Shown: positions 1 through 24,121 of the stretch, piece by piece
Position numbering within the stretch: position 1 is the first letter of the stretch
How the letters are laid out: every line of letters begins with the position of its first letter
DNA from: an uncultured delta proteobacterium
GTDB taxonomy: Bacteria; Desulfobacterota; Binatia; Binatales; Binataceae
Direction: 5' to 3'
Assembly: GCA_963851325.1 (NCBI GenBank)
Contig: CAWKOR010000002.1
Location: 263,289 to 327,288, forward strand
Length of the DNA stretch: 64,000 bases
Program-made: the position numbers and the translations under genes
Notes under the pieces: generated by a model
What the model saw: the letters and a program-made list of their open reading frames with translations, nothing else
Told to the model about the DNA's origin: nothing
Databases searched by the model: none

Positions 1-639
1 GACCGAGTTGAGGCGATAAAAAAGATCCTCGCGAAACTGTGACGCCTTCATCATCGCGCGCAAGTCGCGATTGGTCGCAGCCACCAATCGAATCGACACC
101 TGGTAGATCTTGGTTGAACCGACCGGCTGGATTTCCTGGTTCTCGACCGCGCGCAGCAGCTTGGGTTGGAGGCTCAGCGGAAGCTCACCGATCTCATCGA
201 GAAACAGCGTCCCGCCGTTGGCGGAACGAAAATAGCCGAGCGAATCCTCGCGGGCGTCGGTGAACGCGCCCTTGACGTGCCCAAAGAGCTGCGACTCAGC
301 CAGGCTGTCGACCAGATTGGAACAGTTGAACGTCACAAACGGACGGTCGGGGGCGGTTCCGAAGCTATGCAGCGCCCATGCGATCAGTTCCTTGCCGGTG
401 CCCGACTCGCCTTCGATCAGTACGGTCTGCGTGTGGGGTCCGAGACGCTTGAGCGTGTTCACTATGGCGCGCATTTCGTCCGACCGCACCACCATTCCGC
501 CGATGTGCTCGGTGCCTTCGGATAGCTTCTCGATCGAAATCCATTCGCAGCCAGGTTCTGTTAGAGCGTCATGTGCCAGGTCATCCACTGTGATTCTCCC
601 TGCGGTGGGGAAACACAGCCGACCGAGCGCACCTCGCAC
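1..639 (-). CDS. Sigma-54-dependent transcriptional activator (AAA+ EBP), 5' part only; C-terminus lies beyond the window start. Short N-terminus with no receiver or GAF domain.
   Basis: Hand translation of the minus strand (not in the ORF track, which requires a stop inside the window). It reads ...[38 protein letters not shown]...[15 protein letters not shown]...[55 protein letters not shown]...[29 protein letters not shown]. Walker A GESGTGKE, a GAFTDA loop and the ESQLFGH and [10 protein letters not shown] motifs identify the sigma-54 interaction domain. There is an in-frame stop at 706-708. Candidate GTG starts are at 637-639 (GGGGGGA 9 nt upstream) or 664-666. Confidence 0.75.
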   Translation of the reverse strand, partial: [213 protein letters not shown]

Positions 640-839
640 GTCACCGATTCCCCCCGCTGATACACACAGCAAATGGCGGGCCTACCGAGGCATTCGCGGC
701 GGTACATCAAATCCTTGGTTTTAATCGGATGCCGGAGCATCCAGCCATGCGCCGGTGCGAGCATGACTCTTTGTGAATCATGCTCCATCGGATGGTTATC
801 GCAACGGTGAAGGGGACTGTCTCACAATGAGGCGTCGGC

Positions 840-1631
840 TTAGAGAATCGTTTCGAGCAGATCCGGAAGGCCAACCAGATTGGGCAGTTCGGCATCGGGG
901 ACGGGGGACTGCTCGGATACCTTGATTCCCATTCTGTTCAGCCAGATGCTCTTGATGCCTACTGCGGCCGCGCCTGCGACGTCGCGCACGAGGCTGTCGC
1001 CGATCATAACCGCCGACGCCTCATCCACCCCGAGCCGATCGATCGCGAGGCGAAAGATCTCCGGCTTCGGTTTGCCGAAGCCCTCTTCGCCCGAGACCAG
1101 GATCGCATCGAAGTATCCAGCCAGACCCGAGCCGTCGATCTTCTCGCGCTGGATGTCGGAGGCGCCGTTGGTGATCATGCCGATTCTCACTCGCGAGCGC
1201 AGCGCATCCAGCACGGCGCGCGACTCCGGAAAGACCACATGACGTTGTTTGCGATCGGCCAGAAAGAAGTCCGCCAGTTCGCGCGCCATCGCAGGATCGT
1301 CGATGCCCACATCGGCGAGCGCGCGGGTCCATGCGTCGATGCGATAGCTCGGAATCCATTCGCGCAAAATGTTCAGGTTCGGTTCGTCGCCGGTGAACGC
1401 GCCCCACAGACCCTCGCGTGAGCTGATTCCGATATCGCGGCAGTACTGCACGGCGGGGCCGGCGCGCCACAATTCGATGGAGCGCGCGCGCAATGCCTTC
1501 AGCATACCGGCGACGTCCACTCCGTGACGCAGACGCGCGATATCGCAGGCCGCCAGCGCCGAGGCATCGTTGGAGGCTTCTTCCAGGATGAGGGTCTCGT
1601 CGAGATCGAAGAGGACGGTTTCGACTTTCAC
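840..1631 (-). CDS. HAD-superfamily hydrolase
   Basis: 263-aa ORF with the HAD motif I FDLDETL near the N-terminus, a KPKPEIF-type motif and a terminal GDS..D motif. Confidence 0.8.
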   Translation of the reverse strand: MKVETVLFDLDETLILEEASNDASALAACDIARLRHGVDVAGMLKALRARSIELWRAGPAVQYCRDIGISSREGLWGAFTGDEPNLNILREWIPSYRIDAWTRALADVGIDDPAMARELADFFLADRKQRHVVFPESRAVLDALRSRVRIGMITNGASDIQREKIDGSGLAGYFDAILVSGEEGFGKPKPEIFRLAIDRLGVDEASAVMIGDSLVRDVAGAAAVGIKSIWLNRMGIKVSEQSPVPDAELPNLVGLPDLLETIL

Positions 1632-1637
1632 TTGCGT

Positions 1638-2084
1638 CTACGCGTCCAGAATCTCGGCGAGGACTTTGGCCGGATGATCGCGCGGATCGACGCGGTCATA
1701 AACCCGGGCGATAGCGCCTTGTTCATCGATGAGAAAGCTTATCCGCTCGGCGTACTTCGCCTTCACATCGGAGCATGCCCCGTAGGCCAGCGCGACTTCG
1801 CGATCGACATCACATAGCAGCGGGAATTTGAAATCGAATTTGCGCGCGAATGCGGCGTTGCGCTCGACCGGGTCGAAGCTGATCCCTAGAAGCTGAATCG
1901 CGTTGTCGTCGTAGTACTCCTGATGGTCGCGAAAGCCGCGACCTTCAAGTGAGCATCCGGGAGTGTCGGCCTCGGGATAAAACCACAGCAGGACCTTCTT
2001 GCCGCGCAAGCTCGAAAGCGAAACCGGAGCACCGGTGTGCGATTGAATCGTGAAATCGGGAGCAGTGTCGCCCACCTTAAGCAT
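1638..2084 (-). CDS. bcp: Thiol peroxidase / peroxiredoxin, Bcp type
   Basis: The ORF 1638..2174 contains MLKVGDTAPDFTIQSH...KKVLLWFYPEADTPGCSLE (peroxidatic Cys in a TPGC context). The internal Met (residue 31) gives a Bcp-length protein and removes the overlap with the upstream gene. Confidence 0.8.
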   Translation of the reverse strand: MLKVGDTAPDFTIQSHTGAPVSLSSLRGKKVLLWFYPEADTPGCSLEGRGFRDHQEYYDDNAIQLLGISFDPVERNAAFARKFDFKFPLLCDVDREVALAYGACSDVKAKYAERISFLIDEQGAIARVYDRVDPRDHPAKVLAEILDA

Positions 2085-22371: not shown

Positions 22372-22769
22372 CTCGAGGTGTGCGGAGCCCAACAGTAAAC
22401 CAGCATCGCGGCGCGAAGCCAAGGCGTCGGCGCAGGCGCCTGGACTCCCACCATCGGAGCGTGTGCGCGTCTGCCTCGTTCACCGCTGATACGGCGCCCG
22501 GATGGCAGTCACATTTTCTATACAAAAAGTAGCAGGCCGGCGCGCTCGATAGCTGCGTGGCGAGCGACGCTGAATCGCACCCGCCGATCGTCCCCAGAAG
22601 CGAGTTGACGTCAGGCTCCGATAACCCTCCGCGGCTCACCGGTATTTCGAATTGCTTGTAAATTCGCGCGGTTGCGGGGCATTCGCAAAAGTGTCAGCCG
22701 CGCTGGTGGGAATGCCCTCCGGAGTCTCGTCTGTGCAGTCGGTGCATGAGTGTGCGGACCAAAGGCCCT

Positions 22770-22879
22770 ATTTGCAATTGGTTGCCGCAACCTGCGCAAA
22801 TGAGTGTGTCACAGCCGATACCAGCCACTTGACATGAGTCCGGAAAAACCGTAACAATCAAAAACCTACAACTTGTAGG
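22770..22879 (+). promoter_or_regulatory. Promoter/operator region upstream of the sigma-54 activator gene: nested palindrome ATTTGC..GGTTGC-C-GCAACC..GCAAAT, a sigma-70-like TTGACA-N17-TAACAA, and palindrome CCTACAA-C-TTGTAGG at the predicted transcription start
   Basis: Read directly from the sequence. Nested palindrome at 22770-22801, TTGACA at 22829-22834, TAACAA at 22852-22857, and a 7-bp-arm palindrome at 22865-22879. A GGGGAGGGGGA RBS lies before the ATG at 22931. Confidence 0.3.
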
Positions 22880-22930
22880 CATACTTTCTGTACCGATTGT
22901 AGTTACGGTGCCACCTGGGGAGGGGGAACC

Positions 22931-24121
22931 ATGAGTCTGAGCGAGGATACAGTTGCGCAGTCGTCTACCGCGCCGGTTGCACACTTGCGTCATTCCGGAT
23001 CACTCGGCGCCGGGCCCGACTGGATAAGCATCGAGAGGCTGGTTGAAGGTTCCGAGCGGGTCGGCGGAATGCTGATTCGGTCGGTGCAGTTCAAGCGGCT
23101 TTTCGCCAGCATCATCCGGTTTGCACCGCACAAGGCCACCGTGCTGATTCAGGGCGAATCGGGTACCGGCAAGGAGCTGGTCGCTCGTTCCCTACATAGT
23201 CTGGGCGCCGTTCCTAACGGACCTTTCGTGACCTTCAACTGCTCGAACCTGGTCGATTCGCTGGCGGAATCGCAGCTATTCGGCCATGTGAAGGGCGCCT
23301 TCACCGATGCGCGCGAGGACTCCCTCGGCTACTTCCGTTCCGCGAACGGCGGCACCTTGTTTCTGGACGAGATCGGCGAGTTGCCCCTGAAACTCCAGCC
23401 CAAGCTGCTCCGCGCCGTCGAAATGCACGAGGTTCAGCCGGTAGGCTCCTCACACAGTTATAAGGTCGATATTCGGTTGGTTGCGGCCACCAATCGCGAC
23501 TTGCGCTCGATGGTGAAGGCCGGTGAGTTTCGCGACGATCTGTATTATCGCCTCAACGCCGCGGCGTTGATCATTCCGCCGCTGCGCGATCGGCGCGACG
23601 CGATTCCCGCCTTCGTCGGCCATTTCGTCGAACAATATTGCCGGCTCTTCGCCAAGGACATCCGGCGCATTTCTCGCCAGGCGGTCGAGGCATTGTGCGC
23701 CTACTCATGGCCGGGCAATGTTCGCGAACTCGCCCATGCGGTCGAGAGCGCGGTGCTGATGGCCGACGGAGATGGCATTACGCTCAACGAACTTCCCAGC
23801 AATGTGCTCGAAGGTCGCGATGCCTCGGCTGTCCCGATTACAGAGGTTACCGCGACCGCGCTTCCGGCGGAAATTCCGGATGCGGCCGTAGTACCAGCGA
23901 TCAACCCGGAAGCGGCTGCGGAATCGAAGTTTTCGCTCGACGCAGCGATTCGCGAAGCCTCCAAGGACGCCCTGGTTCGCGCGCTCAATGCCACCCACGG
24001 CAATTGCCATCGCGCGGCCGATCTCTTGGGAGTCTCGCGCTATACGGTTTACCGGATGCTTGCGCGCTACGGATTGACCGAATCGCGCGGCTATCGAAGC
24101 TGGCGCAAGAGCCCCGCTTAA
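22931..24121 (+). CDS. Sigma-54-dependent transcriptional activator (AAA+ EBP plus C-terminal Fis-type HTH), lacking an N-terminal regulatory domain
   Basis: 396 aa with Walker A GESGTGKE, a GAFTDA loop, [17 protein letters not shown] and a C-terminal HTH ([22 protein letters not shown]). Only ~30 aa precede the AAA+ core. It is a paralogue of the partial gene at 1..639. Confidence 0.9.
   Translation: [396 protein letters not shown]

What the first reader, a model, noticed from the sequence alone, without database searches (positions are those of the whole stretch)
1..24121. Two paralogous sigma-54 activators lacking regulatory domains (PspF/HrpR-HrpS-like architecture) flank a sigma-54-driven Tad pilus locus; both carry GAFTDA instead of GAFTGA
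The activator at 1..639 (-) and the one at 22931..24121 (+) consist of a ~30-aa N-terminus, the AAA+ sigma-54 domain and an HTH, with no receiver, GAF or PAS input module. In the overlap they share a 55-aa block that is 100% identical at the protein level ([55 protein letters not shown]). The underlying DNA differs at many synonymous sites, so this is an old duplication under strong purifying selection, not recent gene conversion. The signature sigma-54-contact loop reads GAFTDA in both copies. Input-domain-less EBPs are usually controlled in trans (PspA, HrpV) or act as hetero-hexamers (HrpR/HrpS). No partner gene is obvious in this window.
Basis: partly seen in the sequence, partly recalled or inferred. 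Interest (0 to 1): 0.55.

Follow-up and report, generated by a model that had tools for sequence, protein, structure and literature searches.

The report
Sensor-less sigma-54 activators beside Tad pilus
The window holds two old paralogues of a Binatia-specific family of compact sigma-54 activators with no sensor domain; one sits, probably with a third tandem copy just off the window, behind a Tad/Flp pilus operon with a conserved sigma-54 promoter, and the other looks unrelated to the pilus.

Summary
The sequence observation holds. EBP-A (window 1-588, minus; full protein P0447, 389 aa) and EBP-B (22931-24121, plus; 396 aa) are paralogous sigma-54 activators. Each has a disordered tail of about 15 (A) to 30 (B) residues, then an AAA+ domain, lid, linker and Fis-type HTH. 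They share a 55-aa identical block carrying 33 synonymous DNA differences, and both read GAFTDA.

Three points change the picture.
- **GAFTDA is a family signature.** Of 353 cluster representatives, 341 read GAFTDA or GAYTDA and none GAFTGA. It is also a published natural variant (DVU2106, VfmH) and occurs in 9 of 82 generic activators where a loop motif could be read.
- **"Flanking" is loose.** EBP-B lies 12.5 kb from flp behind about ten unrelated genes. It belongs to a different clade, has a sigma-70-like promoter with its own palindrome, and has no nearby -24/-12 site.
- **The real partner is off-window.** In about ten related contigs from at least six organisms, EBP-A is followed in tandem by a third paralogue, EBP-C (62-66% identical).

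flp, EBP-A and EBP-C each carry a conserved -24/-12 promoter. I read this as a self-driven sigma-54 module controlling the Tad pilus, and possibly an HrpR/HrpS-like pair. This is a new member of a known kind, of moderate interest.

The parts
1..588 (-). EBP-A, N-terminal 196 of 389 aa (rest off-window): short tail, AAA+ sigma-54 domain with GAFTDA. The full protein is P0447, which carries a Fis-type HTH.
668..683 (-). Candidate -24/-12 (sigma-54) promoter of EBP-A: AGGCCCGCCATTTGCT. GG-N10-GC is kept in 5 orthologous loci.
762..782 (-). Conserved element CATGATTCACAAAGAGTCATG, about 100 bp upstream of the EBP-A -24 site. Candidate enhancer.
   Evidence: (alignment A3)
840..2174 (-). HAD-family hydrolase (840-1631) and AhpC/peroxiredoxin (1638-2174). 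They are always found between the Tad genes and EBP-A.
2107..10089 (-). Tad pilus machinery: TPR/TadD-like 2107-2661, TadC 2719-3729, TadB 3665-4615, TadA/CpaF ATPase 4621-6006, TadZ/CpaE 6018-7238, secretin RcpA/CpaC 7253-9049, RcpC/CpaB 9046-10089.
10200..10388 (-). flp pilin gene, 62 aa (G/TMTEY processing motif; Pfam Flp_Fap, weak).
10475..10490 (-). Sigma-54 promoter of flp: TGGCACGCGACGTGCA. TGGCACG and TGC are invariant in 7 aligned loci.
10534..10654 (.). Two copies of the 13-mer TCTCAAAGTGGGA / TCCCACTTTGAGA in inverted orientation (10534-10546 and 10642-10654), centred about 51 and 159 bp upstream of the -24 GG. They are the only perfect TCYCA-N3-TGRGA matches in 64 kb. Candidate enhancers.
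10794..11693 (+). Conserved 299-aa lipoprotein of unknown function, divergent from flp.
22298..22371 (-). tRNA-Lys(ttt), between the carboxylase cluster and EBP-B.
22829..22879 (+). Upstream region of EBP-B: sigma-70-like TTGACA (22829-22834), 17 nt, TAACAA, then the perfect palindrome CCTACAACTTGTAGG (22865-22879). Conserved in orthologues.
22931..24121 (+). EBP-B, 396 aa: disordered 1-26, AAA+ 50-212 with GAFTDA, lid 219-298, disordered linker 299-334, HTH 340-380.

Best explanation
Both genes belong to a family of compact (~385-400 aa) sigma-54 enhancer-binding proteins found mainly in Binatia. The family has no sensory domain, and its sigma-54-contact loop always reads GA[F/Y]TDA.

**EBP-A and the pilus.** EBP-A is the activator tied to the Tad/Flp pilus. 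The gene order flp-rcpC-secretin-tadZ-tadA-tadB-tadC-TPR-ahpC-HAD-EBP-A is conserved, and in every related contig that continues further a sister paralogue, EBP-C, follows about 280 bp downstream. flp, EBP-A and EBP-C each have their own conserved -24/-12 promoter with conserved upstream elements.

**Inferred mechanism.** A and/or C bind upstream of flp and use ATP to open the sigma-54 promoter. Because the activator genes are themselves sigma-54-dependent, the module forms a positive-feedback loop or cascade. Activator abundance then sets the output, possibly with mixed A/C rings, in place of a ligand or phosphoryl input.

**EBP-B.** It is a separate paralogue. It has a sigma-70-type promoter overlapped by a palindromic operator (probably autoregulation) and an unknown target outside this window.

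**Shown versus inferred.** Shown: domain content, synteny, promoter conservation, clade structure. Inferred: which activator acts at which promoter, the feedback, and EBP-C's presence in this particular genome.
For: - **Domains:**
- **Family signature:** 300 GAFTDA plus 41 GAYTDA among 353 representatives, none GAFTGA; Walker A at a median position of 73.
- **Tandem A-C behind the Tad operon:** L002, L084, L085, L088, L102, L109, L111 and L114, plus partial contigs L110, L112, L113 and L090.
- **Same overall layout elsewhere:** contig_19330 has C-A-...-Tad-flp, then 11.5 kb, then B, as in the window.
- **Clades:** A and C are sisters; B is apart.
- **flp promoter:** core invariant in 7 aligned loci, and matches again in L114, amid 59% mean column identity.
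- **EBP-C promoter:** CTGGCGCA-N4-TTGCT and an upstream GACAACAAA[G/A]TGTC are invariant in 5 aligned loci; in L114 the promoter is identical and the upstream element differs at one base.
- **EBP-A promoter:** conserved in 5 loci.
- **Promoter scan:** only three strong -24/-12 matches in the 64 kb, two of them just upstream of flp and EBP-A on the correct strand. The same positions score best in the orthologous loci.
- **Precedents:** a GAFTDA activator (DVU2106) listed as regulator of sigma-54-dependent operons, a sigma-54 response regulator controlling Flp/Tad pilin (DVU2114), and N-terminal-less activators proposed to act through partners or cascades.
- **EBP-B:** sigma-70-like promoter plus palindrome, conserved in L003 and L107 and partly in L108. 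No conserved -24/-12 site nearby.
Against: - Nothing here is experimental. rpoN was not located in this genome.
- The sequence beyond window position 1 could not be retrieved, and no C-clade protein from the 941-kb contig appeared in the top 120 hits. The hit lists are demonstrably incomplete, though: P0447 itself was missed.
- The EBP-A -24 element (AGGCCC) is a weak match to TGGCAC.
- The candidate enhancer motifs were derived from the same regions in which I then counted them, and the orthologous loci share ancestry.
- If all three promoters need sigma-54, something must start the loop, and that is unexplained.
Confidence: 0.55

Rival explanations
1. One reading: EBP-A and EBP-B are the functional pair. 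They would form a hetero-hexamer or jointly control the Tad locus they bracket.
For: They share an identical 55-aa block spanning the L1 loop and Walker B, and 70% identity across the AAA+ core. The A-Tad-B layout at about the same spacing recurs in contig_19330, and both occur on one 36.5-kb contig (P0059 and P0122).
Against: - B is in a different clade from A and C, and its HTH recognition region differs.
- B has a sigma-70-like promoter and a private palindrome found nowhere else in the window.
- About ten unrelated genes and a tRNA separate B from flp.
- In L108 the B orthologue sits in a different neighbourhood.
- The same block is nearly invariant across the whole family, so its identity says nothing specific about an A-B pairing.
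Confidence: 0.07
2. EBP-A and EBP-C are an obligate HrpR/HrpS-like hetero-hexamer. Neither works alone, and the pair is the unit that activates flp.
For: - They are tandem, same-strand sister paralogues, always found together.
- They are 62-66% identical, matching the 55-65% reported for HrpR/HrpS.
- Neither has a sensor domain, and their HTH regions are nearly identical.
- EBP-C often reads GAYTDA while A always reads GAFTDA, echoing GAYTGA in HrpS against GAFTGV in HrpR.
Against: - hrpRS is a single operon, whereas an invariant -24/-12 promoter lies in the 280-bp A-C spacer, pointing to separate or sequential expression.
- Both proteins keep every catalytic motif, so there is no visible sign of paralogue degeneration.
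- No HrpV- or HrpG-like gene was seen.
Confidence: 0.2
3. The activators are constitutively competent and are held off by an unidentified protein acting in trans (PspA- or HrpV-like), encoded elsewhere in the genome.
For: This is the textbook control for PspF and HrpS. The family also has a conserved, ordered N-terminal segment, [E/D]W[I/L]x[I/L]E, that could serve as a docking surface.
Against: - No PspA_IM30- or HrpV-type hit among the window ORFs scanned.
- None appears in the Pfam labels of the flanks of 9 related loci.
- The small conserved ORF after EBP-C starts with a hydrophobic, signal-peptide-like N-terminus (read by eye), so it is probably exported.
Confidence: 0.13
4. The Gly-to-Asp change disables sigma-54 contact. 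The family would then act as sigma-54-independent regulators or repressors.
For: VfmH (GAFTDA) did not pull down sigma-54, and its authors left the effect of G-to-D open.
Against: - The F and T residues needed for sigma-54 contact are retained.
- A GAFTDA activator (DVU2106) is listed as regulator of sigma-54-dependent operons, and the variant is classed as activation-compatible.
- Conserved -24/-12 promoters sit exactly at the associated genes.
- The full set of ATPase motifs is under strong purifying selection.
Confidence: 0.05

Closest known systems
HrpR/HrpS of Pseudomonas syringae (PMC3105312, PMC7057263)
   Same: Paralogous sigma-54 activators with no N-terminal regulatory domain. They are arranged in tandem next to an envelope-spanning machine (type III secretion there, a Tad pilus here). 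Identity within the pair is similar: 55-65% there, 62-66% for A-C here. One partner carries an F-to-Y change in the L1 loop.
   Different: - The tandem partner is EBP-C, which is off-window, not EBP-B.
- A and C each have their own sigma-54 promoter rather than forming one operon.
- The inferred direct target is the pilin operon, not an ECF sigma factor gene.
- No HrpV or HrpG was seen.
- Co-dependence is untested.
PspF of E. coli
   Same: AAA+ domain plus HTH with no sensor domain. PspF structures are among the solved relatives.
   Different: The score against the PspF equivalog model is far below its cutoff: 258.6 against 443.55 bits. There is no pspA or psp operon nearby. The family has an extra 25-30-aa tail, a 40-aa linker and GAFTDA.
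DVU2114 and DVU2106 of Desulfovibrio vulgaris (PMC3333781, PMC4641369)
   Same: DVU2114 is a sigma-54 activator that targets Flp/Tad-type pilin genes. DVU2106 carries GAFTDA and is listed as regulator of sigma-54 operons. That genome also has 4 of 37 activators lacking an N-terminal domain.
   Different: DVU2114 is a receiver-domain response regulator with GAFTGA. In the Binatia proteins the sensor-less architecture, the GAFTDA loop and the pilus association occur together in one lineage-wide family.
PilR-type control of type IVa pilin
   Same: A sigma-54 promoter directly upstream of the pilin gene. Repeated upstream elements containing TGTC resemble PilR sites (this resemblance is from my own memory, not tested).
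   Different: PilR is phosphorylated by PilS through a receiver domain. Here there is no receiver domain and no adjacent kinase.

Membership tests
Bacterial enhancer-binding proteins (sigma-54 activators) | AAA+ sigma-54 interaction domain with Walker A, Walker B, arginine fingers and sensor II | tested here: met
   PF00158 at E=1.8e-62 for B. [22 protein letters not shown] and GN[V/I]REL are intact in A, B and C. The closest solved relatives are ZraR, NtrC1, FleQ, NifA and PspF.
Bacterial enhancer-binding proteins (sigma-54 activators) | GAFTGA L1 loop that contacts sigma-54 region I | tested here: inconclusive
   The loop reads GAFTDA. The F and T residues essential for contact are kept, and Gly5 is Asp. 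The variant is reported as activation-compatible in D. vulgaris. Function in these proteins was not tested.
Bacterial enhancer-binding proteins (sigma-54 activators) | C-terminal Fis-type HTH | tested here: met
   PF02954 at residues 340-380 of B. P0447, the full-length A, has PF02954 on record and aligns through the HTH.
Bacterial enhancer-binding proteins (sigma-54 activators) | A cognate -24/-12 promoter at a target gene, and rpoN in the genome | tested here: inconclusive
   Conserved -24/-12 promoters at flp, EBP-A and EBP-C. rpoN could not be searched for in this genome.
PspF family | Reaches the equivalog model cutoff, and sits next to the psp operon with PspA as anti-activator | tested here: not met
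   TIGR02974 scores 258.6 bits against a cutoff of 443.55. No PspA-type hit among the window ORFs scanned.
HrpR/HrpS-type co-dependent pair | Two sensor-less paralogues arranged in tandem | tested here: inconclusive
   Not met for A and B, which are 22 kb apart on opposite strands. Met for A and C in about ten related contigs. EBP-C of this genome lies outside the window and was not retrieved.
HrpR/HrpS-type co-dependent pair | Co-transcription as one operon | tested here: not met
   The 280-bp A-C spacer holds an invariant CTGGCGCA-N4-TTGCT promoter with upstream conserved elements. Read-through from A is not excluded.
HrpR/HrpS-type co-dependent pair | Hetero-hexamer formation with strict co-dependence, and a HrpV-type inhibitor | not testable with these tools
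   This needs biochemistry. No candidate inhibitor gene was seen in the flanks.
Tad/Flp pilus locus | Flp pilin, RcpC/CpaB, secretin, TadZ/CpaE, TadA/CpaF, TadB, TadC and a TPR TadD-like protein | tested here: met
   Pfam hits for every component. The 62-aa Flp has a TMTEY motif and a weak Flp_Fap hit. No prepilin peptidase (TadV/CpaA) gene was found within 1-11 kb.

The most novel reading that the evidence does not exclude
EBP-A and the off-window EBP-C could be a second natural example of an obligate hetero-hexameric sigma-54 activator, as in HrpR/HrpS. In this reading they are wired as a self-amplifying sigma-54 loop that works as an on/off switch for Tad pilus production without any sensor domain. 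The family-wide Asp in the L1 loop would have co-evolved with Binatia sigma-54 region I. EBP-B, the only one of the three with a sigma-70 promoter, might be what starts the cascade.
Probability: 0.12. Interest if true: 0.6.

Novelty: new member of a known kind. Interest (0 to 1): 0.33.

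Why it matters
Binatia are uncultured and widespread in soils, and nothing is known about their gene regulation. This locus gives a concrete, testable circuit: three conserved sigma-54 promoters, two or three sensor-less activators, and a surface-pilus output.

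HrpR/HrpS is described as the exception among sigma-54 activators. If the A-C pair proved co-dependent, that arrangement would be recurrent rather than a one-off. The locus would also offer a natural system for asking what the Gly-to-Asp change in the sigma-54-contact loop does.

As it stands, each individual ingredient has precedent: sensor-less activators, GAFTDA, and sigma-54-controlled Flp pilin.

Tried and rejected
- **Genome-collection scan.** I ran it with a family alignment to count paralogues per genome. The patterns chosen (GESGTGK[ED]L, LAE[SA]QLFGH) are generic to sigma-54 activators. I reused those hits as a baseline for GAFTDA frequency. Paralogue number per genome remains unknown.
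- **Sequence beyond window position 1.** Look-ups with the HAD hydrolase, Flp, P0001 and P0447 returned only short Logan contigs or nothing. P0394, a C-type protein on a 1.04-Mb scaffold, belongs to a different species at about 78% nucleotide identity.
- **GAFTDA as a sequencing artefact.** Rejected; see the family counts.
- **EBP-B as regulator of the neighbouring carboxylase (leucine-catabolism-like) cluster.** No -24/-12 site lies between them, a tRNA-Lys intervenes, and no such site is conserved in L003, L107 or L108. I left B's target as unknown.
- **The small conserved ORF after EBP-C as an HrpV-like partner.** Rejected, because its N-terminus looks like a signal peptide (hydrophobic stretch, read by eye).
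- **The third strong -24/-12 match (38266).** It lies inside the squalene-hopene cyclase coding region, and I treated it as chance.
- **A FleQ-like c-di-GMP site in the AAA+ domain.** I considered this from memory only. The motifs I could recall are either generic or absent, so I make no claim.
- **PADLOC.** The only hits were generic RtcR/PspF-type AAA+ models, with no link to a defence system.

Full report
**What is in the window.**
- Translating 1-639 (minus) and 22931-24121 (plus) gives two sigma-54 activators.
- EBP-B (396 aa) has Pfam Sigma54_activat at 50-212, AAA_lid_14 at 219-298 and HTH_8 at 340-380, with nothing before residue 50.
- No NCBIfam equivalog model reaches its cutoff. PspF scores 258.6 against 443.55 bits, so neither protein belongs to a named family.
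- The two are 70% identical over the 195 aa visible.
- The 55-aa block is identical in protein and differs at 33 of 165 nucleotides without changing any amino acid. Overall dS is about 1.3 and dN about 0.23.
- An in-frame stop lies upstream of EBP-A. The window therefore hides A's C-terminus, not its N-terminus.
- The full protein is P0447 (389 aa), recorded on the same 941,310-bp contig as P0001, the database copy of EBP-B. It starts at the GTG at window 588 and carries an HTH. Full-length A and B are 59% identical.

**Gene map.**
- Minus strand, running from position 1: EBP-A, HAD hydrolase, AhpC, TPR, TadC, TadB, TadA, TadZ, secretin, RcpC and flp (10200-10388).
- Then a divergent conserved lipoprotein, an esterase and OtsA/OtsB.
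- Then a methylmalonyl-CoA-mutase/hydratase/biotin-carboxylase/carboxyltransferase cluster, tRNA-Lys and EBP-B.
- After B come a convergent sulfotransferase/glycosyltransferase cluster, PBP1C, an alpha-2-macroglobulin and squalene-hopene cyclase.
- B is therefore 12.5 kb from flp, behind about ten unrelated genes. No PspA-, HrpV- or RpoN-like product turned up among the window ORFs scanned.

**The family.**
- Source names place the closest homologues in Candidatus Binatus and Binataceae.
- All 120 best hits to B share the short N-terminus and GAFTDA.
- Across 353 cluster representatives from three searches there are 300 GAFTDA, 41 GAYTDA and no GAFTGA. Lengths cluster at 380-400 aa, and Walker A sits at a median position of 73.
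- AlphaFold2 on a 49-sequence alignment gives residues 1-26 and 299-334 as disordered. The conserved [E/D]W[I/L]x[I/L]E...GGM segment (30-50) is a confident strand/helix packed on the AAA+ core. There is no hidden sensor domain.

**GAFTDA is not unusual.**
- It is listed for DVU2106 in Desulfovibrio vulgaris among variants said to preserve activation, and it is noted in Dickeya VfmH.
- It occurs in 9 of the 82 generic activators from other phyla in which a loop motif could be read; most of these carry receiver domains.
- The D. vulgaris paper also reports 4 of 37 activators lacking N-terminal domains, and suggests control by a partner protein or a cascade.

**The finding that changes the interpretation.**
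- In a related but frameshift-ridden contig (L002), a second activator follows EBP-A directly.
- Cleaner contigs confirm this: L084, L085, L088, L102, L109, L111 and L114 all show flp/Tad-TPR-AhpC-HAD-EBP-A-EBP-C on one strand. L090, L110, L112 and L113 are partial.
- These loci are only about 78-80% identical to the window in DNA, so they come from several species.
- Contig_19330 reproduces the whole window layout: C-A-...-Tad-flp, then 11.5 kb, then B.
- EBP-C is about 387 aa with the same architecture, and reads GAFTDA or GAYTDA.
- A neighbour-joining tree makes A and C sister clades (62-66% identical), with B in a separate clade (53-58%).
- A and C share the HTH region GNRRRAADL[L/M]GVSRSTLYRML. 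B has [21 protein letters not shown].
- I could not retrieve this genome's own sequence beyond position 1, so EBP-C here is inferred.

**Promoters.**
- A weighted scan for TGGCACG-N4-TTGCW finds only three strong sites in 64 kb: upstream of EBP-A (668-683), upstream of flp (10475-10490), and one inside the cyclase gene.
- In seven aligned flp upstream regions with 59% mean column identity, TGGCACG and TGC are invariant at the right spacing, and L114 carries the same promoter.
- The EBP-A site keeps GG-N10-GC in five loci.
- The A-C spacer carries an invariant CTGGCGCA-N4-TTGCT in six loci.
- The same three positions are the top scorers in each orthologous locus.

**Candidate enhancers.**
- The only two perfect TCYCA-N3-TGRGA matches in the window are inverted copies of one 13-mer, centred about 51 and 159 bp upstream of the flp -24 GG.
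- Related GTCCCA-N3-TG elements lie upstream of flp and EBP-C in other loci.
- An invariant GACAACAAA[G/A]TGTC lies about 105 bp upstream of the EBP-C promoter.
- These motifs were derived from the same regions in which I counted them. They are leads, not proof.

**EBP-B.** Its upstream region has TTGACA-17-TAACAA followed by the perfect palindrome CCTACAACTTGTAGG. This arrangement is conserved in L003 and L107 and partly in L108, and the palindrome is unique in the window. No conserved -24/-12 site lies near B in four loci. B therefore looks like an independently expressed, probably autoregulated paralogue with a target elsewhere.

**Mechanism and comparison.**
- The best reading is a Tad-pilus regulatory module made of sensor-less sigma-54 activators whose own genes are sigma-54-dependent. 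That gives feedback or a cascade in which activator abundance substitutes for a sensory input.
- The resemblance to HrpR/HrpS is real: tandem, sensor-less, 55-65% identical, with an F/Y difference in the loop, next to a secretion machine. But it applies to A-C, not to A-B.
- It also differs in that each gene has its own promoter.
- Sigma-54 control of Flp/Tad pilin already has a precedent in DVU2114.
- I file this as a new member of a known kind. Interest is moderate, and the main value is a clean, testable circuit in an uncultured lineage.

Noticed in passing
window 51167-51721: Three copies of a 57-99-nt unit (GTGGCTTTGTTTTTGCG... followed by the hairpin CTCGACGTTGTCGAG), with start-to-start spacing of about 283 and 90 nt. 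They lie inside ORFs 50523-52592 (minus), which have no Pfam or PADLOC hit.
   Followed up: partly
proteins P0242, P0247, P0249, P0251, P0252, P0253, P0257: Single polypeptides of 660-820 aa with two sigma-54 AAA+ modules and a short N-terminus. The first module reads GAFTDA (GSFTDA in P0252) and the second GAFTGA (GSFTGA in P0252). These are a possible 'Rosetta-stone' hint that Asp-type modules pair with Gly-type modules.
   Followed up: no
window 10794-11693 (+): A 299-aa lipoprotein (lipobox LVSGC) transcribed divergently from flp. It is conserved in the same position in six loci and has no Pfam or NCBIfam match.
   Followed up: partly
window 22298-22371 (-); L108 1-5400: tRNA-Lys(ttt) lies just upstream of EBP-B. 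In L108 the same side of the B orthologue holds phage-like genes (Peptidase_S78, Ku), which suggests an integration hot spot.
   Followed up: no
L105 180-215: A more distant Tad locus (TadZ 44% identical), with no activator gene in the short stretch of sequence available, has GTGCACG-N4-CTGCA upstream of flp. This is the same promoter shape with the -24 GG changed to TG.
   Followed up: partly
L084 14839; L085 9759: A conserved TGGCGCATCGG[C/T]TGCT lies inside the ECF sigma-factor gene a few kb downstream of EBP-C, pointing at two small genes (one LTXXQ/Metal_resist-like). It may be a further sigma-54 promoter of the same neighbourhood.
   Followed up: no
window 24118-37284 (-): A sulfotransferase/GT2 glycosyltransferase cluster, a class-III aminotransferase, and then the PBP1C plus 1936-aa alpha-2-macroglobulin pair. 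In L108 this whole block is missing, and squalene-hopene cyclase directly follows the B orthologue.
   Followed up: no
window 41800-42675 (-) and 56801-59362 (-): Two cyclic-nucleotide-binding proteins: a Crp-type regulator, and an 853-aa Na+/H+ exchanger with a C-terminal cNMP domain.
   Followed up: no
L084 11150-11458; L085 6725-7012; L109 11187-11504: A conserved 95-105-aa ORF directly after EBP-C with a hydrophobic, signal-peptide-like N-terminus (read by eye) (…NPPPEL[I/L]QLEREVSLKMAHAR…). Function unknown.
   Followed up: partly
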